Shown: positions 5,245 through 15,245, counted from the first letter of the stretch. The stretch is DNA of 64,000 bases from Vicinamibacterales bacterium (GCA_035293405.1 DATDOE010000031.1:9936-73935), one strand, 5' to 3'. Notes: generated by a model not told the origin, from the sequence alone. Made by a program: numbers and translations.

Positions 5245-8200
5245 GAACGAGAAGGTTACATTGAATCGCGCAAAGCGCGGCGGCACGATCGCGGTCGGCT
5301 GCAACCAGGTCGCCCCGCCCGTCGCGTAGGCGAAATTCGCGTCGAACCCGGTTGTGTCGTTGGTGTTGAACAGATTGTAGAGGTCAACGCCAATGTCGGC
5401 CTTCCGCCCGCCGAACCGGAGGACCTTGGCGAACCGCATGTCCACCTGCGTGAGCCGCTCGTCCGGGTAGAGCTGTCCGGGCGTGAGCAGGTTGACCGTC
5501 GTCGTGCCGTTGGGCAGCGCACCAGCCGGCAGTCGGCCGAGCAACTGCTGCACCACGGAGTTCGGCAGTTGAACGTTGGCATTGAGCGACGCCCCGTTGG
5601 TGGCCGACGCGCCACCGACGCCGCCGATGTTGTTCGGATTCAGCGATCTGAACTGGGCGCTGACGAGCACGTCGATCTTGGGCACGGTGTAGGCAGCAAG
5701 CCCCCTGAAGGACGTCATCACCGGCTCGGTTACATGACACGCTGACGCTTGTACCAATTGCGACGTGGCCGTGCCCTGCCCAAAGAGCGTCTCGGGAAGG
5801 TTCTTCGCCGTCTCGCACGTGTCGCGCACGCCCCGGCCGGTGCTCGTCCCGCCCTGGAACGTGAGGCCGTTGGCCAGCCGCGCGTTCAGCGAGACGTTCA
5901 CCCCATGCCAGTACTGCGTGCGCGCCGGGCCGAAGTCCGTCTCGAAGGTGCGGTAGGTCTGCGCGCCGATCACCTGCGTGCGGGAATAGACCGTGACGGG
6001 GTAGCCGCCGCCGCCCGGCAGCTCCGGATGCTGCGGCGCCGTGTACGTCCACGGGGTGTAGTCAGACGGCCCAACGAGCTGGTTGTCGTCCACGAAGAAA
6101 TTCTGGAACCAGCGCCGGTTGTAGCTGGCATCGATCGAGAGGCGCGGGAGCAGCTCCTGCTGGACCGACAGGCCGACCTGCCAGTCGCTTGGACGCACGC
6201 CCCAGCCGCTCAGAATCTCCGGGTTGACGATCGTCAGGGTGGGATTGGCATTCCCGAAGTTCACGTTGTTGCCGGTCAGCGCGGCACAGTTGTCGCCGCC
6301 GGTGGCCAGGTTGTTCTGCGCGGCCGGGTTCAACAGATCGCAGTCCACGACGAAGTTCCCGTTGCCGTCCTGCCACCCCCGCGCCGGCGTCAACACATTC
6401 CTCACGATCCGGGCTGCCGGGTTATTCGCGGTGTAGTTCTCGTCGTTGGTGGCGTTCTGCAGATACTTGCCCACGTTGGCCTTGAAGGCCGTCTTGCCGT
6501 TGCCGAAGACGTCCCAAGCGGCGCCAAACCGCGTCGTGATGTCGTTGTAACCGGCCACGCTCACGGTGCGCGGGAAGGTGATTGGCGCAGGATTGAACTT
6601 CGAGATCTCCGTCGTGCCGTTGCCCTCGGCCGGCGAAAAGCTCGACGCCCGGTCGTAGCGGACCGCGCCCTGAAGCGTGAAGCGCCCCCTCGTCCACTGA
6701 TCCTGCACGTAGAGCGCCGAGGTCGCCGTGCGGTCGTTCTGTTCCCACCTCGACGCGAGGGTATAACTGACACCGTTCAGCGCGCGGTTGTTGCTCGTAT
6801 ACCGCAGTAGCGTGCTGTTGGCGTCCCTGGCCAGCAGCGATCGCTGATACGAGCCCTGATACCCGACCTTCAGGTTGTGCGCACCCGTGACGTACGCCAT
6901 CGATGCGCGCCAGTTGTTCGGGTTCGCGTCGTGGTCGGCCCATCCGATTTCGAATGGATCGAACATGCCGCGATACGTGAAATTTGCGCGATGACCATCG
7001 ATGGCCTGTGATTCAGTCACCGGGATCAGATCCGTCAGCGCGTCTGGCGGCGCCTGTCCAAAGCCCGCCCACAGATACTGGAAGCGCGAAAAGCCGGCCT
7101 CGAGCAGCACCTTGTTCGAGATCGGCGAGGTCCACGTCGCCTGTGTCACGTGGTACGGGAAGTCGTGGTACCCGGGCCACGACTCGGGTGAGGCCGTGAG
7201 CGTCCCGAGGCCGATCCAGTTGTCCCCGCGGCCTCGGCAGCCGCCACCGCCGGACGAGATGGCCCCTCCAGAGCACCGGTGCTGATATTCGTGGGAGAAG
7301 GTGAAGCGGTTCCGCTCGCTCGCCTGTGCCGTCAGCCGGAACTGGAAGATGTCCCGTCGATTCGTGCCGCGCACCTCAACCGCTTCATTCCGCGCGTAGT
7401 CCCAGCGGGTCGCGTCGCCGGCGTAGAGGTTCGCGACGGTGCCTTCGGTATAGGTGGTGCTCCCGAAGTCGCGCACGCTGCCGAAAAACCACAGCCGGTC
7501 GCGGAGGATGGGGCCGCCAAGCGCGCCGCTGACGTCGTATTGGCTGAGCAGCGCCGGCGGCTTGGTAATGTTGACGCTGCGCAGATAGTCGTCGATGTTG
7601 TCCGACCGCAGGCCATTCCCGGTGCCGCTGTAGAAGGCAGTGCCGTTGAACGAGTTGCCACCCGAGCGTGGCACGAGGTTGACACTCGGCCCGCCCGCTT
7701 CGGATTCACCAAGCCCTCCCGACACGAGGACCTGCATCTCTTCCGTGTTCGCCACGTCGTAGATGAACGTGGACACACCGCCGCCATTGAAGGAGGCGGC
7801 GACGGACATGCCGTTGATCAACATGCGTCCTTCGTTGGCGCGGCCCCCGTTCGACGTGAAGAACGTCATGAAGGGCTCGGTCATCGCGCCCCGCGAGCTG
7901 TTGTCGGTGGTGATCCCCGGGATGGCGGCCAGCAGCGTTCCATAGCTGCGCGTGACGGGAAGCGAGGCCAGCACCTCGGCGTTGATCACCATCTCGCGAC
8001 GCGTCGTCTGCACGTCGACAGTCGGCGTCTCGCCGGTCACGGTGATCGTTTCCTGCAGCGCTCCAACGCGCAGATCGGCGTTGATCGTTGTCACGCCCGA
8101 TCCCGTCAGCGCGACGCCCGAACGCACCACGCGGGTGAACCCCTGAAGGCTGTAGGTCAGCGTGTAGGAGCCGGGTGGCAAATCGGTGATGCGGTACAGG

Positions 8201-8703: not shown

Positions 8704-9600
8704 CTACCTCGGATTGTCGTGATGCGACCCGTCGATGATGTGGTCGATGTCCCGATCCTCGCAGCGTGCGGGTTCCTCGATCTCGATATCGGTAATCCAC
8801 ATCACCTGCCCCTTCGGTGACCACGGTTCGGCAAGCACCGACGGATCCTGCACGGTCGCCCGGTATTCGATCGTGTCGCCAATCCGGCGGAACCGCTCGG
8901 TGACCTCGAGAGCGGCGGTGTGGAACGCGCCGTTGTCGGTGAGCCACGTCTCTTCGTTGAAGCCGGCGGTCTCGACGATCAGCGTGTCACCTTCGATGCG
9001 ACCGATCGCGTCGCCGAGAAAGCTGGCCGGGACGTCCTTGCGGTGCGGGCGGCCGTCAGTGGGGATGATCCTGAAGAACGACCCGTTCACATCGTCGTAG
9101 AGAAACACCACCTCGCGCGCGTTCTGCACGATCTTGGTTGGCGGGCCGATGCGCGGCACTCCAGGCGGCTGGCACTGGAGGTTGGTGTCCATCTGAACCT
9201 GACGCTTCTTCAGATCGGCCACCTTGGCCTGAGACTCAGGTTTGTATTTCGGAAAATCGGTCTGAATCGGAGGGAACGGTGCCGGCGGCGGGCCACCGGC
9301 CCGGGCACCCTGTCCGCCGCCGCGAGCCGCTCCAGGCGGAGGCGGGCACCCGATCAGGCAGATCGATCCGTCTGGTCGCGTCACTGGCCGGACGAACTCG
9401 ATGCCGCCGAGATGGTCCCAGGTGCCGTTGAAGTCGGTCCGGCCATCGGCGAGCTTCGGCGTGGGTTTGGCCGACAGCTTCTGAAGCTGCGCCACGGTTC
9501 CACGATCGGGAGCTCGAGCCGCGACCTGCGCTGAAGAAGTGCCGGCGACGGCGAGCGCCGAGAGGGTCACGATGCTGCACGCAAACAGGCGGTGTGTCAT
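8704..9600 (-). CDS. Secreted hypothetical protein (DGRPH-motif family; paralogous to 27020-27778 and to the N-terminal half of 28241-30202)
   Basis: The internal ATG at 9600 is preceded by GGAG and followed by signal peptide MTHRLFACSIVTLSALAVAGTSSAQ. Shared motifs with the paralogs include G.W near the N-terminus, QC.PPG.P, TDGRPH and G.IEGDTL.VET. No enzymatic motif recognised. Confidence 0.6.
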   Translation of the reverse strand: MTHRLFACSIVTLSALAVAGTSSAQVAARAPDRGTVAQLQKLSAKPTPKLADGRTDFNGTWDHLGGIEFVRPVTRPDGSICLIGCPPPPGAARGGGQGARAGGPPPAPFPPIQTDFPKYKPESQAKVADLKKRQVQMDTNLQCQPPGVPRIGPPTKIVQNAREVVFLYDDVNGSFFRIIPTDGRPHRKDVPASFLGDAIGRIEGDTLIVETAGFNEETWLTDNGAFHTAALEVTERFRRIGDTIEYRATVQDPSVLAEPWSPKGQVMWITDIEIEEPARCEDRDIDHIIDGSHHDNPR

Positions 9601-9611
9601 GGCGATCTCCT

Positions 9612-10007
9612 CTATTGCCCGGTTGGCGAGAACGAGTGTCCGTCGGCGTAGGTGATCTTGTTGATCCATCCAAGGTGTTTGGACCCATCGCGCGCGGGTA
9701 CCGCGTTGATCGTCACCTCTTCACCGGGCTTCCCCTGCAGCGTCTCCCTGGTCAGACCCGCGCGCCGCATCATCGCCGTCGGCAGCGTTGACAGCGCCCA
9801 CGTCGAGGTCGTTCCGTCGGGTTCCTTGACGTCGAGACGAATGTAGATGTGCGGATTGATCCAGTCGACCTTCGAGATGACGCCTTTGAGCGTCATCGGC
9901 TTCGTCGTGTCGAACTGACCCGGCACCGAGTGATGAGCCAGTGACGCCGCCGTGGCCGCCAGGCCGATCGCCACGGTCACCAGAAGACCGCCCAGTCGAT
10001 GTCGCAT
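9612..10007 (-). CDS. Small periplasmic HHS-motif protein (DUF6152-like)
   Basis: The ATG at 10007 is preceded by GGAGGG. Signal peptide ends at ...AASLA/HHSVPGQFD. Homologous by eye to 27846-28241 (AHHS, NPH, RETL.G). The DUF6152 label is from memory. Confidence 0.6.
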   Translation of the reverse strand: MRHRLGGLLVTVAIGLAATAASLAHHSVPGQFDTTKPMTLKGVISKVDWINPHIYIRLDVKEPDGTTSTWALSTLPTAMMRRAGLTRETLQGKPGEEVTINAVPARDGSKHLGWINKITYADGHSFSPTGQ

Positions 10008-10066
10008 TGCCCACCCTCCAGATACGGAAACGCTCGGGGACAGAGTATGCCCAGGCACCGGGCCGG

Positions 10067-13000
10067 TCAAGCCATGGCGGGGCCCTCGGCTGGCGGCGAG
10101 TAACGCGACGCCGCGATCAGCGCGTCGCCGAGCTCACGCAGCGCTTTTCGCGCCTGATCCGAGCTGCGCTTCGTCTGCTGGGTCTCGATTTCGATGCCGA
10201 TCTGGCTGCGATCGTCGTTGCCCAACTGCGACATGAGACGCGGGTTCGCCGTCGCGGCCCGCGCGAGCGCCGCCAGCCATTCGTCATTCAGGTTCTCCAG
10301 AACGTGCCACGCCAACGCGGAAAATGCCGCGGCGTTTCCAGCCAGCCGATCCGACTCGAACACCGACTGACCCGGCATCGACAACAGCCGGTGCATGTTC
10401 CCGAGCTCGCTCGCCTGAGTGAGCCTATCGACGATGGCGTTCAGAACGGGCGGCCGCACCGCCGGTTCGATCGCATCGAAGACGGCTTTCCTGTAGTGAT
10501 CGCCCGCAACCGACACGCCTGCTTCAGCCAGTCTCGGCACGAGACGCCGAAGGCCCTCGCCAGCCGCCTCGCCGAGTGCGACTTGAGATCCACCCAGCAA
10601 GAGCGACCAGACGAGTCGCCCCAGGCTCGCGTCGCCCTCAAGAGCTCGCTCCCAGCCTGGTGCATCCAGCCCACGAACGATATCGAGGCAACGAGCCACC
10701 AACGAAGATGTGTCCACACCTTCGGCCTCGAGTGCCCCGGTATAGAGCGAGCCCATGTCGAGCCTGAAGGGCTCGGCACTGAGAAGACCGGTGAACCGAG
10801 GGTTGTGTTCGGACAGAAGCCTGGCGATCACGTATGGATCGGTGTCGGGGAAGGTCAGGCTCCACTGATCGACCAGCACGTGTGGCGGAAACACTCGAGC
10901 GGGCGGCCCCAGGGCGGCGAGTGCCTGAAGCACCGAGAGCATCACGTCCTTCGCTTGCCATGAACGTTGCGCGACTTGAAAGATCGTGCTCGTGTCACCC
11001 ATCTGCACGACCGTACGAGCCAGTGAGTCGCAGAAGGCGGCGTCGCTGAAGATCTGTGACCACGCCGGCATGAGGGGCTCGCTGCCGCTGGCCTCGGAGG
11101 GGTAGAGGACCTGTCTGATCTCTGGATCGACGCGCGCAATCGTGTAGAACCATGCGGCCTGAAGGTCGAGATTCCGATCCTTGAACGCAGTCGTGAACAA
11201 CTGGCGAGCGGTCCCTTCATCGACCAGCCCCTTCAGCACTTCCACGGCGCTGGGCTCGTTCCACAGGGCGTGCAGAGCCGCCAGGAGATGCTGGTGTCCT
11301 TCTTGGTGCACCTCTTGGCTACGTAACCGGACGTCGGCGCTCGTAATAAACACACTCCATCTGGCCCCGACGCTCCCAGCCTGCGCCACGCGCACCGAGG
11401 CGACGAGCTCGGGATCAGCCAGCTGCTTGGCGGCCAGCTCGCCAATGAGCAGATTCGGGTCGGACGGTGGGAAGTGCGCCCAGAGCTTTCCTTCAGGGTC
11501 GCGAGCGACGAGCTCGCTCGCAAGCCGGCCGTACATGACGGCGCTGCCGTCACCGCTCGGCTGAACCACGCGAGGCGGCTGCGGCATCCACTCGCCGAGC
11601 CCGGACGTCATTCGGGCGTAGTCGTCGAGAAACGACGGGATGCTGAGCCCACTGCCCCAGCCGGGATCACCGGTTCGGGTCGCGACAAACGCCTGAAACA
11701 TCGGCGCTGCAAGAGCGGGCTTCCGGCGGCTCAGCAAGAGAATGCCATCGACGGCCCTGGCGTCCATGGGAGCCCAGCTCCCCACCCTCTCGGTTGCAGC
11801 CTCGATCGGGCGAAACCATTGATCGACCCTCCATGCCGGTTCGTGCGTCGTGATCTCACTCTCTTCAAGCGCGACCACGGCGTGCAACAGCTTTCCACCT
11901 TCGGCGTGCGGCCACTCCTCGCATCCGCGCCAGAGCGCCTGCTCGAGCACCAGCCAGAACGCGTCGTTCGAGTCGGAGAGGGTCTTGAGCGCTTGTGGAT
12001 CGGGCGCTTCCAGCGCCTGCATGATCGGCTCTTTGAGGAGCAGCTCCTGCGCGGACTCGATGGGTACGCCATACGCCATCGCGGCCAGATGCTGCCGTAT
12101 TTTGTCGCTCAGCAGCCCCGCTTCGCCCGCCTCAGGCAACTGCCCGATCGAATCGGCCGTGATCGGCACCTTGTCACGCTGCAACAGCGCGAAGTACGCG
12201 AGATCGGGAAGAGGAATCTCGTCCTGCCACTGACGATGCAGCGATCCCACCTGGTTGACGAAGAGCTTGAGCTCGCGCGGCGTCGGCGCGGGTGTCGCAG
12301 GCGTCCGGCGCACGGCATAGAGCCGGTAGATGCGGAAGTACTCACCGTCTGAATGTTCTGGCATCGCCTCCTTGAGGCGCGCCATGACGTAGTCCTTCCA
12401 ATCCGACAGCAACGGCAGCGGCACCTCGAACCGTACCTGAAAGGTTTTGTCGAGAAAGGATTCAGCGACATGGCTGCCCTGCAGACTGTCCTGCGGCCAC
12501 AGCCGACGAATCGCGTCGCCATCAAACGGCAGCAGACACCAGAGCCCGTCGAGCCACGGCTCTCGTGTCTCACGGTGTCGTACGAAGGTCTGCAGGGTCG
12601 ACCACATCGACAACCCCTGCTCGGCGCCCACGCGATCGAGGTTGTCCACCACCAGGACGAGGCGGCGGTCCGGGTCCGTATTCTGGGGTGGTGGTGTGAG
12701 CGCCGCCTGCATCACCTCACAGAACACGCGCTCGAACTCGAGGCTGGTCGGTTCGCCGGTATCGAGCGTTTCCGTGCGCGACGCGGCGTCGGTCTGGCGC
12801 ACGAACAACGTGAGCGCAGCCGGAAGCCTCTGTCGAAGATCGGCCACCGTTCCACCGCGAAACAGTACTGCACCCACGTAGCAGACGAGAACCACGAGTG
12901 GAGCAAAGACGCCCATCAAGCCGATAACCGCTGCCCAGTCCACCGACAGCGCCGGATCGAAGGACAACCCGGCGTCCAGCCGGTTGCCCCAAAGGTCGAG

Positions 13001-13519
13001 GCCTACTGGTACAAGAAGGAGCGAGACGGCGAGCGCGATCGCCAGGGGCGAGAGGCTCGGCGTGTTCGACTGCTCGACGACCTTGCGCCGTTTCGCGAGG
13101 ATCTCGAGACGTTCCTTCCACTCCTTGCCGGTCAACCACTCCTTTTCTGTCAGTCTCTGCGTCAGGCTTTCCAGAAACATCCGTCGCAGCGAGTCGCCTT
13201 CATGCGCCCATGCGTCGAACAGCCACACGACATAGCGAGGATCGTTCTCCAGGTGCTTTCGAAGGATTTCGACGACCGTCGACTTGCCGGCGCCCCAAGT
13301 ACCCAGAAGACCGATCGATTTGCCACCCGGAGATGTGCTGATCAACTGCGCGATGGCAGCCGCAATGCGCCCGTGCGCGCCGAAGGCGTCCTTCTCGGCG
13401 GGAGCGTCCGAAACGAGCTGAGTCGGGCAGACGTGCCCGCTAGTTTCTTGGGAGGAGCTCAAAATGGCCAAGGTGCCACGCATCGAAGTTGGGTCGGGAC
13501 TGGAAACCGCGCGGATCAT
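10067..13519 (-). CDS. KAP-family P-loop NTPase with transmembrane insertion and about 700-aa helical C-terminal extension
   Basis: Walker A GTWGAGKST (nt 13277-13303). Two hydrophobic helices (LSPLAIALAVSLLLVPVGL and VIGLMGVFAPLVVLVCYVGAVLF) are inserted before Walker B LVLVVDNLDR. This arrangement is diagnostic of KAP NTPases. The start overlaps the upstream stop (ATGA). Confidence 0.8.
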   Translation of the reverse strand: MIRAVSSPDPTSMRGTLAILSSSQETSGHVCPTQLVSDAPAEKDAFGAHGRIAAAIAQLISTSPGGKSIGLLGTWGAGKSTVVEILRKHLENDPRYVVWLFDAWAHEGDSLRRMFLESLTQRLTEKEWLTGKEWKERLEILAKRRKVVEQSNTPSLSPLAIALAVSLLLVPVGLDLWGNRLDAGLSFDPALSVDWAAVIGLMGVFAPLVVLVCYVGAVLFRGGTVADLRQRLPAALTLFVRQTDAASRTETLDTGEPTSLEFERVFCEVMQAALTPPPQNTDPDRRLVLVVDNLDRVGAEQGLSMWSTLQTFVRHRETREPWLDGLWCLLPFDGDAIRRLWPQDSLQGSHVAESFLDKTFQVRFEVPLPLLSDWKDYVMARLKEAMPEHSDGEYFRIYRLYAVRRTPATPAPTPRELKLFVNQVGSLHRQWQDEIPLPDLAYFALLQRDKVPITADSIGQLPEAGEAGLLSDKIRQHLAAMAYGVPIESAQELLLKEPIMQALEAPDPQALKTLSDSNDAFWLVLEQALWRGCEEWPHAEGGKLLHAVVALEESEITTHEPAWRVDQWFRPIEAATERVGSWAPMDARAVDGILLLSRRKPALAAPMFQAFVATRTGDPGWGSGLSIPSFLDDYARMTSGLGEWMPQPPRVVQPSGDGSAVMYGRLASELVARDPEGKLWAHFPPSDPNLLIGELAAKQLADPELVASVRVAQAGSVGARWSVFITSADVRLRSQEVHQEGHQHLLAALHALWNEPSAVEVLKGLVDEGTARQLFTTAFKDRNLDLQAAWFYTIARVDPEIRQVLYPSEASGSEPLMPAWSQIFSDAAFCDSLARTVVQMGDTSTIFQVAQRSWQAKDVMLSVLQALAALGPPARVFPPHVLVDQWSLTFPDTDPYVIARLLSEHNPRFTGLLSAEPFRLDMGSLYTGALEAEGVDTSSLVARCLDIVRGLDAPGWERALEGDASLGRLVWSLLLGGSQVALGEAAGEGLRRLVPRLAEAGVSVAGDHYRKAVFDAIEPAVRPPVLNAIVDRLTQASELGNMHRLLSMPGQSVFESDRLAGNAAAFSALAWHVLENLNDEWLAALARAATANPRLMSQLGNDDRSQIGIEIETQQTKRSSDQARKALRELGDALIAASRYSPPAEGPAMA

Positions 13520-14145
13520 ATGGACGGGACGCAGGCTCTGGCAAGCGTGAGGACAGCCGTTCCGATGACCACCAGCACGAGTGCGATGGAGATCATCCGC
13601 TGTCGCCTCCCGCGCCGCTCGTCGGCGAGGCGCAGCTCCATGATGTTCGCCCAGACGGCCTTATCGAGCTCGGGGTCGATCCGTTGCGGCCCGCCGTCGC
13701 CTGGCGGCTTTGGCGAGGCAAGCCCGCCGTCGCCTGGCGGCTTCGGCGGGGCAAGCTCCGCGTCGGTCTGCACAGGGACGACACCAACCGGCGCCACGAA
13801 TCGATATCCACGCTTCGGCACCGTCTGAATGAAAACCGGGTTCTCGGCCGGGTCGTTCAAGGCCTCGCGGACCTGTTTGATCGCGAAGTTCACACCCTGC
13901 TCGAAATCCACGAACGTGTCGCCGGTCCAGAGCGCGGCCTGAATCTGTTCACGCGTCACGAGCTTGCCCGGGTGACCGGCGAGCAGGCATAGCAGCTTGA
14001 AGGGCTGCGGCTGCAGGCGTACGTGCCGGCCGTTCTTGAGCAGCTGCCCCGCCTCCAGATCCAGTTCGAACACGCCAAAGCGGATGAGCCCAGGCCCCAC
14101 GGTGCCCGCTCCCAATCGCTGTGGCGCTGATGGCTGGTCGCTCAT
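13516..14145 (-). CDS. Membrane-anchored OmpR/CadC/ToxR-type winged-helix transcriptional regulator
   Basis: Trans_reg_C-like segment FGVFELDLEAGQLLKNGRHVRLQPQPFKLLCLLAGHPGKLVTREQI...VPKRGYRFVAPV. C-terminal TM helix ISIALVLVVIGTAVLTLA. Start choice is uncertain: ATG 14145 or the track's 14211. Confidence 0.7.
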   Translation of the reverse strand: MSDQPSAPQRLGAGTVGPGLIRFGVFELDLEAGQLLKNGRHVRLQPQPFKLLCLLAGHPGKLVTREQIQAALWTGDTFVDFEQGVNFAIKQVREALNDPAENPVFIQTVPKRGYRFVAPVGVVPVQTDAELAPPKPPGDGGLASPKPPGDGGPQRIDPELDKAVWANIMELRLADERRGRRQRMISIALVLVVIGTAVLTLARACVPSI

Positions 14146-14210
14146 TGAAAGATCAGTGCAGGCAGAGACCGGCGCTTCATGCGCAGGAGGATAGTAGAAT
14201 TCCGCACCCA

Positions 14211-15245
14211 ATGAAACGGTTCCATGTGGCGTGGCTCGTGTGGCTGTTGTGCCTTTCGACAGTCCCTGCCACTGCGCAGCGCTATGCCGCGCAGCGCGAC
14301 GGCGAGGTCGTCCACCTCACCGACACCGCAACCGGCACTCGCGTGTCGATCGCGCCATCGATCGGCAACATCGCGTTCCGGATGACCGTGAAGGGCCACG
14401 ACATCCTGCGATGGCCGCATGCCGACATGGCTGCGTTCAAGGCCAACCCGAACATGACCGGCATCCCGTTCATGGCCCCCTGGATCAACCGTCTGGACGA
14501 GCAGGCGTTCTACGCCAACGGCAAGCGGTATCCGTTCGACATGACGCTCGGCAACGTGCGTGGCGCCATCCCCATTCATGGCTTCCTCACATCGACGTCC
14601 GAGTGGCGCGTCGTGTCCGTCGATGCCGGTCGCGACTCGGCGGCCGTGACCAGCCGCCTCGAGTTCTTCCGCCAGCCGGCGTGGATGAAGCAGTGGCCGT
14701 TCGCGCACAGCATCGACATGACCTATCGCCTGTCCGAGGGCACGCTCCAGGTCGAGACGACGATCCTCAACATGAGCGCCGAGCCGATGCCGGTCTCGAT
14801 CGGGTTTCATCCGTACTTCCAGCTGACAGATTCCCCACGCGACGAGTGGACGATCTCCGTCGGCGCACGCACGCATTGGAAGCTGATGCCCAACAAGCTG
14901 CCCACCGGCGAGACCGAACCAATCGGGCAGCCGTTCACGGGCGGAGTGCCACTGCGTGACTACGACCTCGATGACGACTTCAGCGATCTGGTGCGGGATG
15001 CGCAGGGGCGCGCGACGATGACGGTGATCGGCAAGTCGCAACGCATCGACGTGCTGTTCGGACCAAACTACCGGACCGCCGTCGTCTGGGCGCCGAAGCC
15101 ACAGAACTTCATCTGCTTCGAACCGATGGCGGCCATGACCAACGCCCTCAACCTGACGCAGAAGGGTCTCTACAAGGAGCTGCAGAGCATCCCGCCAGGA
15201 GGGACATGGCGGGAGAGCTTCTGGATCCGCCCGGTCGGGTTCTAG
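14211..15245 (+). CDS. Aldose 1-epimerase (galactose mutarotase-like) family protein, secreted
   Basis: Signal peptide MKRFHVAWLVWLLCLSTVPATAQ from the ATG at 14211. Motifs HGFL...W.V and GFHPYFQL are typical of the aldose-epimerase fold. Confidence 0.75.
   Translation: MKRFHVAWLVWLLCLSTVPATAQRYAAQRDGEVVHLTDTATGTRVSIAPSIGNIAFRMTVKGHDILRWPHADMAAFKANPNMTGIPFMAPWINRLDEQAFYANGKRYPFDMTLGNVRGAIPIHGFLTSTSEWRVVSVDAGRDSAAVTSRLEFFRQPAWMKQWPFAHSIDMTYRLSEGTLQVETTILNMSAEPMPVSIGFHPYFQLTDSPRDEWTISVGARTHWKLMPNKLPTGETEPIGQPFTGGVPLRDYDLDDDFSDLVRDAQGRATMTVIGKSQRIDVLFGPNYRTAVVWAPKPQNFICFEPMAAMTNALNLTQKGLYKELQSIPPGGTWRESFWIRPVGF

What the first reader, a model, noticed from the sequence alone, without database searches (positions are those of the whole stretch)
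10067..14145. KAP-family transmembrane NTPase translationally coupled to a ToxR-like membrane-anchored regulator
The 1150-aa protein has the KAP hallmark: Walker A GTWGAGKST, two TM helices inserted in the P-loop domain, and Walker B VVDNLDR. It also carries a long helical C-terminal region with no motif I recognise.
Its start overlaps the stop of a winged-helix (OmpR/CadC-type) regulator with a single C-terminal TM helix (ATGA at 13516-13519), implying co-expression. Most KAP NTPases are uncharacterised. To my recollection, a single-gene anti-phage system named Tmn (transmembrane NTPase) belongs to this family.
I am not aware of a described KAP pairing with a one-component membrane transcription factor. 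It could be a sensor/effector or defence-type module. The pair is inserted between unrelated periplasmic genes and looks slightly less GC-rich by eye.
Basis: partly seen in the sequence, partly recalled or inferred. Interest (0 to 1): 0.6.

Follow-up and report, generated by a model that had tools for sequence, protein, structure and literature searches.

The report
Membrane KAP NTPase beside unrelated regulator
Both genes are real, but they are chance neighbours: the regulator belongs with the uptake-gene cluster downstream, and the large membrane ATPase is an optional, often-lost gene of a probably anti-phage kind.

Summary
The genes are as described. There is a 1150-aa KAP-family P-loop NTPase with two TM helices between Walker A and B and a ~670-aa all-helical solenoid tail. 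Just upstream lies a 209-aa winged-helix regulator with a C-terminal TM anchor, and an ATGA overlap joins the two ORFs.

The pairing is not a module.
- Seven syntenic KAP orthologues have an esterase or ftr gene upstream, never the regulator.
- Four contigs with regulator orthologues (84-86% identity) place it directly before the DUF6152 gene, with no KAP.
- None of 163 loci encoding KAP relatives has a winged-helix gene next to the KAP.
- Only 2 of 36 species in the genus, and 1 of 201 genomes sampled in the order, carry the KAP.

The ATGA start is doubtful, because homologues begin 5-15 residues before Cys31.

The KAP belongs to a broad clade of ~1100-1200-aa proteins found across many phyla. 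In 28 of 160 loci it lies within three genes of restriction-modification genes. Its NTPase half is 67-85% identical among the syntenic orthologues (P0003-P0011), but its tail only 30-39%. It has the Tmn architecture yet fails both Tmn/YobI models.

Best reading: a stand-alone, defence-type membrane sensor NTPase that rides on the regulator's transcript. It is a new member of a known kind.

The parts
10067..13519 (-). KAP-family transmembrane P-loop NTPase, longest ORF of 1150 aa. Alternative starts are ATG 13483 (M13) and TTG 13471 or 13462.
   Evidence: PF07693, 79.3 bits; AF2 mean pLDDT 83.4; start candidates.
13277..13303 (-). Walker A GTWGAGKST (residues 73-81)
   Evidence: G73, W75, G76, G78, K79 and T81 are invariant in 23 homologues.
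12860..13048 (-). Transmembrane hairpin (TM1 about 158-182, TM2 about 195-220) inserted between Walker A and Walker B
   Evidence: Hydropathy maxima of 2.31 and 2.54. Helices in the AF2 model.
12632..12661 (-). Walker B LVLVVDNLDR (residues 287-296)
   Evidence: D292, N293, L294, D295 and R296 are invariant.
10100..12109 (-). C-terminal all-alpha HEAT/ARM-like solenoid (residues about 471-1140); fast-evolving and specific to this family
   Evidence: AF2 secondary structure. Foldseek returns only generic solenoids with TM-score up to 0.22. Residues 601-1150 are 30-39% identical among syntenic orthologues, against 67-85% for the NTPase core. Only 15 representatives in 1.84 billion proteins match it.
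13516..14145 (-). Tail-anchored winged-helix (OmpR/CadC-type) regulator, 209 aa
   Evidence: More than 2000 homologues of 170-220 aa with the same layout.
13798..14031 (-). Trans_reg_C winged-helix DNA-binding domain of the regulator
   Evidence: PF00486, 63.1 bits; residues 61-138 of P0002, which are 39-116 of the 209-aa protein.
13540..13596 (-). Single C-terminal TM helix of the regulator, with only about 8 residues beyond it
   Evidence: hydropathy 2.64. Conserved in orthologues.
13516..13519 (-). ATGA overlap of the regulator's stop with the first ATG of the long KAP ORF
   Evidence: Orthologues read ACA-TAA or ATG-TAA at this position, so the out-of-frame ATG that opens the KAP ORF is specific to the window.
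13515..13544 (-). Sigma-70-like site TTGCCA-18-TATGAT inside the regulator's 3' end. If used, its transcripts would start downstream of the ATGA.
   Evidence: 10 of 12 matches; 1 site found against 0.3 expected. A consensus match only.
10042..10071 (-). Conserved promoter-like motif CTTGACC-N15-CATACTCT upstream of DUF6152. The KAP stop codon TGA lies inside its TTGACC.
   Evidence: Present upstream of DUF6152 in all 17 loci compared, whatever gene lies upstream. The coordinates were derived from the strand read.
8704..10007 (-). DUF6152 gene (9612-10007) and the 321-aa periplasmic gene (8704-9669): the cassette that the regulator directly precedes in relatives
14146..14210 (.). 65-bp divergent intergenic region between the regulator and the aldose 1-epimerase gene (14211-15245, +). 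It is the inferred promoter region for the regulator-KAP transcript.
   Evidence: That it holds the promoter is inference.

Best explanation
Two unrelated genes lie side by side.

The regulator. It is a tail-anchored winged-helix regulator from a large acidobacterial family. Its usual place is directly upstream of the DUF6152 / 300-aa periplasmic protein / TonB-like outer-membrane-protein cluster, and it probably regulates neighbouring genes of that kind (inferred).

The KAP. It is a self-contained, optional gene. The site it occupies, between the aldose-epimerase gene and DUF6152, is variable. There the KAP is ancestral to a small clade of this genus and has been lost repeatedly. In the window's lineage it ended up between the regulator and the DUF6152 promoter, so it is most likely transcribed by read-through from the regulator's promoter (inferred). 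The regulator is not needed for the KAP, nor the KAP for the regulator.

How the KAP works (inferred from architecture and context; not shown). It is a membrane-anchored switch NTPase. Its hypervariable C-terminal alpha-solenoid binds a foreign, probably phage-derived, protein. Binding drives nucleotide-dependent oligomerisation or ATP turnover at the membrane. The TM hairpins then act as the effector, by ion leakage or export or by membrane perturbation, and this stops phage replication. That is the logic shown for Tmn and proposed for the KAP antiphage proteins.
For: Non-conservation of the pair.
- Syntenic KAP orthologues have an esterase (L001, L042, L219, P0005, P0008) or ftr (L002) upstream.
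- Regulator orthologues at 84-86% identity sit directly before DUF6152. This holds in L131 and L132, which are the closest relatives by flanking genes (FTR 96%, P321 95%), and in L220 and L221.
- None of 163 KAP loci has an adjacent wHTH gene.

Variable site. It is empty in some genomes, or holds an esterase, a PAS-domain sensor protein or ABC-transporter genes.

Orthologous 3' junction. In all 5 KAP loci with DNA the stop codon sits in the TTGACC of a motif conserved in 17 loci. KAP-bearing loci are scattered through the tree built from a flanking gene.

Sporadic distribution: 2 of 36 species in the genus and 1 of 201 genomes in the order.

Defence context in the wider clade. Restriction-modification genes lie within three genes in 28 of 160 loci, for example HsdM-HsdS-KAP-HsdR. 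A type I R-M system lies two genes downstream in L219 and L002.

Architecture: AF2 mean pLDDT 83, a P-loop with a TM hairpin, then a solenoid. The tail is 30-39% identical among orthologues, against 67-85% for the NTPase core.

Literature: KAP NTPases fused to unknown C-terminal regions protect against phages (PMC13552941). Tmn senses a phage protein through an ARM/HEAT solenoid (PMC13001434).
Against: - No defence phenotype or transcript data exist for this protein.
- In this genome the gene lies among C1-metabolism and uptake genes, not in a defence island, and no mobile-element genes flank it.
- It stayed at one chromosomal site over substantial divergence, which is less typical of mobile defence genes.
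- No recognisable effector domain is present.
- The R-M association was measured in distant clade members (29-40% identity over the N-terminal half) and without a formal background control.
- The regulator-KAP adjacency may be ancestral to the small regulator-bearing subclade, so some lineage-specific regulatory use cannot be excluded.
Confidence: 0.6

Rival explanations
1. The regulator and the KAP are a functional two-gene membrane module. The KAP would sense a signal in or at the membrane and control the tethered transcription factor, as ToxS does for ToxR or LysP for CadC, or the reverse.
For: The two genes run in the same direction and overlap or nearly abut. Both are membrane-anchored with cytoplasmic domains. 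The regulator has no sensor domain of its own, so it may need a partner.
Against: The adjacency occurs only in the window. Seven KAP orthologue loci lack the regulator, four regulator orthologue contigs lack the KAP, and 0 of 163 loci in the wider clade show it. Regulator homologues precede unrelated genes such as Peptidase_M14 or NHL/kinase genes. The KAP is packed just as tightly against an esterase gene in other lineages, with gaps of 2-16 nt.
Confidence: 0.06
2. The KAP is a housekeeping or regulatory inner-membrane NTPase that works with the DUF6152 / periplasmic protein / TonB-like OMP uptake cluster, for example in assembly or energising.
For: In all seven syntenic relatives the KAP lies immediately upstream of DUF6152 and on the same strand. 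Its stop codon lies inside the DUF6152 promoter-like motif.
Against: - 34 of 36 species in the genus lack the KAP, while 33 of 36 have a match to the 321-aa cassette gene.
- The genome gives 54 DUF6152 and 116 P321-type tblastn hits but only one KAP hit.
- DUF6152 keeps its own conserved promoter-like motif and Shine-Dalgarno sequence.
- More distant KAP homologues lie in unrelated contexts, often R-M operons.
- The shared junction is explained by common descent.
Confidence: 0.12
3. The KAP is a membrane signalling or scaffold NTPase with a cellular role unrelated to defence, such as nucleotide-dependent assembly of a membrane complex. Its sporadic distribution would then reflect dispensability.
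For: HEAT/ARM solenoids are generic protein-binding scaffolds. The locus has no effector domain, no mobile-element genes and no neighbouring defence genes. The eukaryotic KAP member Kidins220 is a scaffold (established knowledge).
Against: A hypervariable tail joined to a conserved NTPase core, repeated loss and frequent embedding in R-M operons fit conflict genes better. Other KAP NTPases with unknown C-terminal regions have been shown to be antiphage (PMC13552941).
Confidence: 0.15
4. The gene is a decaying remnant with no current function in this genome.
For: The gene has been lost often in relatives. The copies in L001 and L042 are frameshifted. GC3 is lower than in neighbouring genes.
Against: The window's ORF is intact over 1150 codons and keeps every invariant motif. 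The model is confident. The frameshifts in L042 also affect neighbouring genes, so they look like assembly errors.
Confidence: 0.07

Closest known systems
[quoted passage not shown]
   Same: Two TM helices inserted in the P-loop domain. A long, variable C-terminal ARM/HEAT-like alpha-solenoid. A length of about 1100-1300 aa. No conserved operon partner. Variation concentrated in the C-terminal region.
   Different: It does not match the PADLOC Tmn model or Pfam YobI-ATPase PF20693. It gives no tblastn match to E. coli plasmids. It belongs to Pfam KAP_NTPase instead. The decamer, Mg2+ export and plasmolysis described for Tmn are untested here.
KAP P-loop NTPase antiphage proteins with C-terminal regions of unknown function (EF_KAP and three metagenomic KAPs; PMC13552941)
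   Same: The same Pfam domain. Membrane-anchored. A C-terminal region without known domains that is needed for defence in EF_KAP. A single gene.
   Different: EF_KAP has one N-terminal TM helix plus one inside the domain, and a 322-aa tail. Here there is a TM hairpin inside the domain and a tail of about 670 aa forming a solenoid. Sequence similarity to those proteins was not tested, and there is no phenotype here.
PifA (F-plasmid T7 exclusion protein; founding KAP member)
   Same: It is the best PADLOC hit (E 2.3e-14). It is a KAP-type P-loop.
   Different: The best-scoring matched stretch covers only residues 41-160 of 1150 and positions 14-136 of the 720-position model. PifA lacks TM helices according to PMC13001434.
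QatA of the QatABCD system
   Same: A KAP-type N-terminal P-loop (PADLOC E 1.3e-10; NCBIfam NF041923 at 42 bits).
   Different: The score is far below the equivalog cut-off of 600 bits. No QatB, QatC or QatD genes are nearby.
ToxR/CadC/TcpP-type membrane-bound one-component regulators (for the upstream gene)
   Same: An N-terminal cytoplasmic OmpR-type winged helix followed by a single TM helix. The best NCBIfam hit is CadC.
   Different: There is no periplasmic sensor domain: only about 8 residues follow the TM helix. The protein is short (170-220 aa) and belongs to a large acidobacterial family with a conserved juxtamembrane helix.
PrrC and other passenger defence genes inside type I R-M operons
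   Same: Distant members of this KAP clade occupy the slot between hsdS and hsdR.
   Different: The window's copy is not next to any R-M genes. The domains differ, with no HEPN nuclease.

Membership tests
KAP family P-loop NTPase (Pfam PF07693) | Match to the family model above the curated threshold | tested here: met
   79.3 bits against a cut-off of 20; residues 52-429 cover model positions 4-291 of 293.
KAP family P-loop NTPase (Pfam PF07693) | [quoted passage not shown] | tested here: met
   GTWGAGKST at 73-81 and LVLVVDNLDR at 287-296. Both are invariant across 23 homologues.
KAP family P-loop NTPase (Pfam PF07693) | Transmembrane helices inserted within the NTPase domain | tested here: met
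   Two hydrophobic segments lie between Walker A and Walker B and form helices in the AF2 model. Membrane insertion itself is not shown.
Tmn / YobI-family transmembrane NTPase | Match to the PADLOC Tmn HMM (at least 50% coverage and E below 1e-10, the criterion used in PMC13001434) | tested here: not met
   No Tmn model appears among the PADLOC hits at E up to 0.1. The best hits are PifA, QatA and PDC-S20; the best-scoring stretch of each lies in the N-terminal 160 residues.
Tmn / YobI-family transmembrane NTPase | Match to Pfam YobI-ATPase (PF20693) | tested here: not met
   The whole genome, this gene included, has no match at E up to 0.01, while control genomes do match. The family is also absent from the Pfam scan.
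Tmn / YobI-family transmembrane NTPase | Two TM helices in the P-loop domain plus a variable C-terminal ARM/HEAT solenoid | tested here: met
   This is a resemblance in architecture only.
Tmn / YobI-family transmembrane NTPase | Decameric assembly, phage-protein sensing, Mg2+ export and plasmolysis, antiphage activity | not testable with these tools
   These need biochemistry and phage assays.
QatABCD | QatA equivalog score and neighbouring QatB, QatC and QatD genes | tested here: not met
   42 bits against a cut-off of 600. The neighbours are a regulator and DUF6152.
PifA | Full-length similarity to PifA | tested here: not met
   The best-scoring stretch covers only model positions 14-136 of 720.
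ToxR/CadC-type membrane one-component regulator (upstream gene) | N-terminal Trans_reg_C winged helix plus a single TM helix | tested here: met
ToxR/CadC-type membrane one-component regulator (upstream gene) | Periplasmic sensor domain after the TM helix | tested here: not met
   The protein ends about 8 residues after the TM helix, and so do its orthologues.
Conserved regulator-KAP two-gene module (the proposed new system) | The adjacency recurs in related or independent genomes | tested here: not met
   0 of 7 syntenic KAP loci, 0 of 4 regulator-orthologue contigs and 0 of 163 loci in the wider clade show it.
Defence-island-associated gene | Relatives are enriched next to known defence genes | tested here: met
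   28 of 160 loci have type I or type IIG R-M genes within three genes. A type I R-M system lies near the KAP in L219 and L002. No formal background control was run, and the window's own locus has no defence neighbours.

The most novel reading that the evidence does not exclude
The KAP-plus-solenoid clade of about 1100-1200 aa is a distinct, widespread, single-gene antiphage system. It would be the KAP-family counterpart of Tmn, reached independently from a different P-loop family. Its hypervariable solenoid would be the phage sensor and its TM hairpin the effector. Members embedded between hsdS and hsdR may guard the restriction system as PrrC does. In this Acidobacterium one copy has sat at a fixed chromosomal site long enough to be captured into a membrane regulator's transcription unit.
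Probability: 0.4. Interest if true: 0.5.

Novelty: new member of a known kind. Interest (0 to 1): 0.3.

Why it matters
The attractive idea was a membrane NTPase wired to a membrane-tethered transcription factor as a new sensor/effector pair. It does not hold, so effort on it can be saved.

What remains is a clean natural history of a KAP-family membrane NTPase.
- One orthologous site shows repeated loss of the gene.
- The NTPase core is conserved while the solenoid tail evolves several-fold faster.
- Distant relatives ride in restriction-modification operons.

This adds an acidobacterial clade to the recently validated class of KAP and Tmn-like membrane defence NTPases. It also points to the tail as the specificity determinant to test.

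The tail-anchored winged-helix family, with more than 2000 members, and the conserved DUF6152 promoter-like motif are useful leads for gene regulation in Vicinamibacteria-like soil bacteria.

Tried and rejected
- Regulator-KAP module: rejected on comparative grounds.
- Recent horizontal acquisition inferred from GC content: rejected. GC equals the genome average and only GC3 is slightly low. The 3' junction is orthologous across divergent relatives.
- Tmn membership: rejected.
- An enzymatic effector in the tail: none found. Pfam shows only a spurious 14.6-bit RNase_II_C_S1 hit. Foldseek against PDB returns only importin, CAND1 and mTOR-type solenoids with TM-score up to 0.22.
- The tail domain fused to other N-terminal domains: not seen. 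Only 15 representatives in 1.84 billion proteins match it; the full-length ones are 1122-1167 aa, the family's own length, and the rest are shorter, probably fragments.
- A KAP deletion scar in KAP-less relatives: a local alignment of the L221 spacer against the whole KAP gene scored no better than shuffles (23 against 22.7 +/- 2.7). Only the first ~30 nt after the regulator's stop align, with modest support.
- The metagenome-contig scan returned only distant relatives (up to 38% identity) and no close orthologues.
- Fetching an E. coli tmn plasmid as a yardstick failed, because the accession is not in the collection.
- A regulator paralogue in the same genome (C83) is a different, 638-aa CadC-like protein and was not informative.

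Full report
WHAT IS THERE

On the minus strand the window carries a run of genes in one direction:
- a 209-aa regulator (14145 to 13516);
- a 1150-aa ORF (13519 to 10067);
- a DUF6152 gene (10007 to 9612);
- a 321-aa periplasmic protein gene (9669 to 8704);
- two CarboxypepD_reg/TonB-like outer-membrane protein genes (8388 to 5242 and 5147 to 2088).

An aldose 1-epimerase gene (14211-15245, +) diverges from the regulator across 65 bp. Genes of the formaldehyde-oxidation (fhc/ftr) pathway follow it.

The large protein matches Pfam KAP_NTPase (79.3 bits, residues 52-429). It has Walker A GTWGAGKST (73-81) and Walker B LVLVVDNLDR (287-296). Two strongly hydrophobic segments lie between these motifs.

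An AlphaFold2 model built on 23 homologues is confident (mean pLDDT 83.4). It shows a P-loop fold interrupted by a helical hairpin (158-182 and 195-220), followed by an all-helical region from about 470 to 1140.

The regulator matches Trans_reg_C (63 bits), and its best NCBIfam hit is CadC. It ends in a single TM helix with only about 8 residues beyond it. The ATGA at 13516-13519 is real.

TWO DETAILS DO NOT HOLD

The pair is not GC-poor. KAP is 0.641 and the regulator 0.662, against 0.649 for the window and 0.651 for the genome. Only GC3 is somewhat lower than in the metabolic neighbours.

The ATGA-coupled start is doubtful, for four reasons:
- Residues 1-28 are unconserved and modelled at pLDDT below 50.
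- Orthologues start 5-15 residues before the conserved Cys31.
- The ATG is formed by the regulator's last codon (ATA) plus its TGA stop. Orthologous regulators end ACA-TAA or ATG-TAA.
- About 30 nt after the stop resemble the non-coding spacer that follows the regulator in KAP-less relatives. Support is modest: 3-10 of 1000 shuffles reach the score.

ATG 13483 (M13) and the TTG codons at 13471 and 13462 are alternative starts. A sigma-70-like site (TTGCCA-18-TATGAT, 13544-13515) would even place a transcript start downstream of the ATGA. That site is a consensus match only. With any of these starts the two genes are at most about 55 nt apart, so co-transcription is likely.

IS THE PAIR A MODULE? 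NO

Full-length homologues of the KAP are few: 30 in 5.8 billion proteins, the closest at 48-55% identity.

Seven of them lie at the same chromosomal site as in the window, immediately upstream of DUF6152:
- Five have a BD-FAE esterase gene upstream, 2-16 nt away where genes were called: L219, P0005, P0008, L001 and L042.
- One follows ftr directly: L002.
- Only the window has the regulator.

The regulator tells the same story from the other side. Its orthologues (84-86% identity) sit directly upstream of DUF6152 with no KAP in between. This holds in L131 and L132, which are the window's nearest relatives by flanking genes (FTR 96%, FhcB 97%, P321 95%, OMP 91.5%). It also holds in L220 and L221.

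An HMM built from the regulator family finds no winged-helix ORF next to the KAP in any of 163 loci encoding KAP relatives. The single hit lies 3.7 kb away.

More distant regulator homologues precede unrelated genes, such as a Peptidase_M14 gene or NHL/kinase genes.

HISTORY OF THE LOCUS

Within the genus, the stretch between the aldose-epimerase gene and DUF6152 is a variable site. It can hold:
- nothing (G212, G229);
- an esterase gene (G234, G223);
- an esterase plus a PAS-domain sensor protein gene (G227, G220);
- the PAS-domain sensor gene alone (G214, G205);
- ABC-transporter genes (G233).

Only 2 of 36 species in the genus, and 1 of 201 genomes sampled from the order, carry the KAP.

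A motif, CTTGACC-N15-CATAC(T/G)CT, precedes DUF6152 in all 17 loci compared, whatever lies upstream. I read it as the DUF6152 promoter, which is inference. In all five KAP-bearing loci with DNA, the KAP ends -Ala-stop with its TGA inside that TTGACC.

This shared junction suggests that the KAP was already present in the ancestor of this subclade and was lost several times. So does the scattering of KAP-bearing loci through a tree of the flanking 321-aa gene. The regulator was then gained upstream of the KAP in the window/L131/L221 branch.

Against L131, homology runs to 9 nt past the regulator's stop and resumes at GGCTTGACC. Only 15 nt lie between those points in L131, against 3.4 kb in the window.

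Under either gain or loss, each gene exists intact without the other.

WHAT THE KAP IS

The N-terminal 530-600 residues define a clade spread across many phyla. It includes Acidobacteriota, Chloroflexota, Planctomycetota, Gemmatimonadota, Bacteroidota, Proteobacteria and methanogenic archaea. There are 235 loci in one-genome-per-species contigs and 111 in metagenomes. Protein length is strikingly constant at about 1100-1200 aa.

I clustered the neighbours of 160 loci. The commonest neighbour families are HsdM (19 loci), HsdS (17), an AlbA_2/HATPase_c_4 protein (9), HsdR (7), ORF6N (5) and a type IIG Eco57I-like enzyme (4). Pfam confirmed these assignments.

In all, 28 of 160 loci have restriction-modification genes within three genes. 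These are nearly always on the same strand, with arrangements such as HsdM-HsdS-KAP-HsdR. Two of the close syntenic relatives (L219, L002) carry a type I R-M system two genes downstream of the KAP.

I ran no formal background control. From general knowledge of R-M gene density, I estimate chance adjacency to an Hsd gene at well under 1%.

Earlier notes of this scan report the same kind of KAP gene as a passenger in R-M operons in other genomes. Those notes are leads, not independent evidence. The neighbour analysis here tests the claim for this family.

THE TAIL

Foldseek against PDB returns only generic HEAT/ARM solenoids (importins, CAND1, mTOR) at TM-score up to 0.22. No enzymatic fold appears.

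Among the syntenic orthologues (P0003-P0011) the NTPase core (residues 31-150 and 241-470) is 67-85% identical, about the level of the flanking genes. Residues 601-1150 are only 30-39% identical.

A full HMMER pass with residues 600-1150 over 1.84 billion representatives finds just 15 proteins. The full-length ones are 1122-1167 aa, the family's own length, and the rest are shorter, probably fragments.

A conserved nucleotide switch joined to a hypervariable repeat domain is the pattern of a ligand-sensing domain under diversifying pressure. That reading is inference.

COMPARISON WITH KNOWN SYSTEMS

The architecture is that of Tmn, which has:
- two TM helices within the P-loop domain;
- a variable ARM/HEAT solenoid that senses a phage protein;
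- no conserved operon partner;
- a length of about 1270 aa (PMC13001434).

Membership fails, however. There is no PADLOC Tmn hit at E up to 0.1, and that paper uses the PADLOC HMM to define the family. There is no Pfam YobI-ATPase match anywhere in the genome, although control genomes do match. There is no tblastn match to E. coli plasmids.

The protein is a KAP-family member. KAP NTPases fused to C-terminal regions of unknown function were recently shown to protect against phages, with Walker B and the tail both required (PMC13552941). PifA and QatA share only the N-terminal P-loop segment.

The KAP is therefore best filed as a new, uncharacterised member of the KAP-type membrane defence NTPases. 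It works like Tmn in layout but is not a Tmn.

MECHANISM

Shown here:
- domain layout, motifs and hydrophobic hairpin;
- confident solenoid model;
- non-conservation of the pairing;
- sporadic distribution;
- R-M association of relatives;
- a fast-evolving tail.

Inferred:
- The regulator and the KAP are co-transcribed from the 65-bp divergent region.
- DUF6152 has its own promoter, which overlaps the KAP stop.
- The solenoid binds a phage-derived protein.
- Binding triggers NTP-dependent oligomerisation or ATP turnover at the membrane.
- The TM hairpins act as the effector.
- The regulator controls neighbouring secreted-protein or uptake genes.

I put about 0.9 on the statement that the pair is not a module. 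I put about 0.55-0.6 on the statement that the KAP is a defence-type sensor NTPase.

VERDICT

The KAP is a new member of a known kind, so overall interest is modest.

Noticed in passing
window 10042-10071 (-); also L001, L002, L042, L119-L131, L219-L221 upstream of DUF6152: The motif CTTGACC-N15-CATAC(T/G)CT, followed by GGAGG and ATG, is conserved upstream of DUF6152 in all 17 loci compared, whatever gene lies upstream. It is probably the cluster's promoter. The spacing does not fit the tool's sigma-70 rule.
   Followed up: partly
between the aldose-epimerase gene and DUF6152 (window 10071-14210; L119-L130): This is a variable site in the genus. It is empty in some genomes, or holds an esterase, an esterase plus a PAS-domain sensor protein gene, that sensor gene alone, ABC-transporter genes, the regulator and/or the KAP.
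   Followed up: yes
L219 6963-9631; L002 9412-11442: A type I restriction-modification system (HsdM and HsdS; fragmented in L002, with an EcoEI_R_C protein) is inserted between the 288-aa cassette gene and the first OMP gene in two KAP-bearing relatives. This is a second variable spot in the same cluster.
   Followed up: partly
L001 about 5900-5990: A second copy of the DUF6152 promoter-like motif (CTTGACCGGTTGTGGGCGGGCATACTCTGTGCTCGAGAGGGA) lies directly upstream of the KAP gene. The esterase gene there is truncated, and the KAP is split into 972-aa and 262-aa frames.
   Followed up: no
whole genome (G000): The DUF6152 and 321-aa (DGRPH-type) families are greatly expanded: 54 and 116 tblastn hits, beside 55-57 hits for the CarboxypepD_reg-type OMPs. 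There is a single hit for the KAP.
   Followed up: partly
window 13540-14145 (-); A3 alignment: The regulator belongs to a family of more than 2000 short (170-220 aa) tail-anchored winged-helix proteins. They share a conserved juxtamembrane helix (LDKAVWANIxELRLxxERR) and have no periplasmic domain. The linker repeat PKPPGDGG varies in copy number between orthologues.
   Followed up: partly
L042 (G235:C18): The closest genome-collection KAP orthologue (58% identity) is broken by several frameshifts. The neighbouring OMP genes are broken as well, so assembly errors in this MAG are more likely than pseudogenisation.
   Followed up: no
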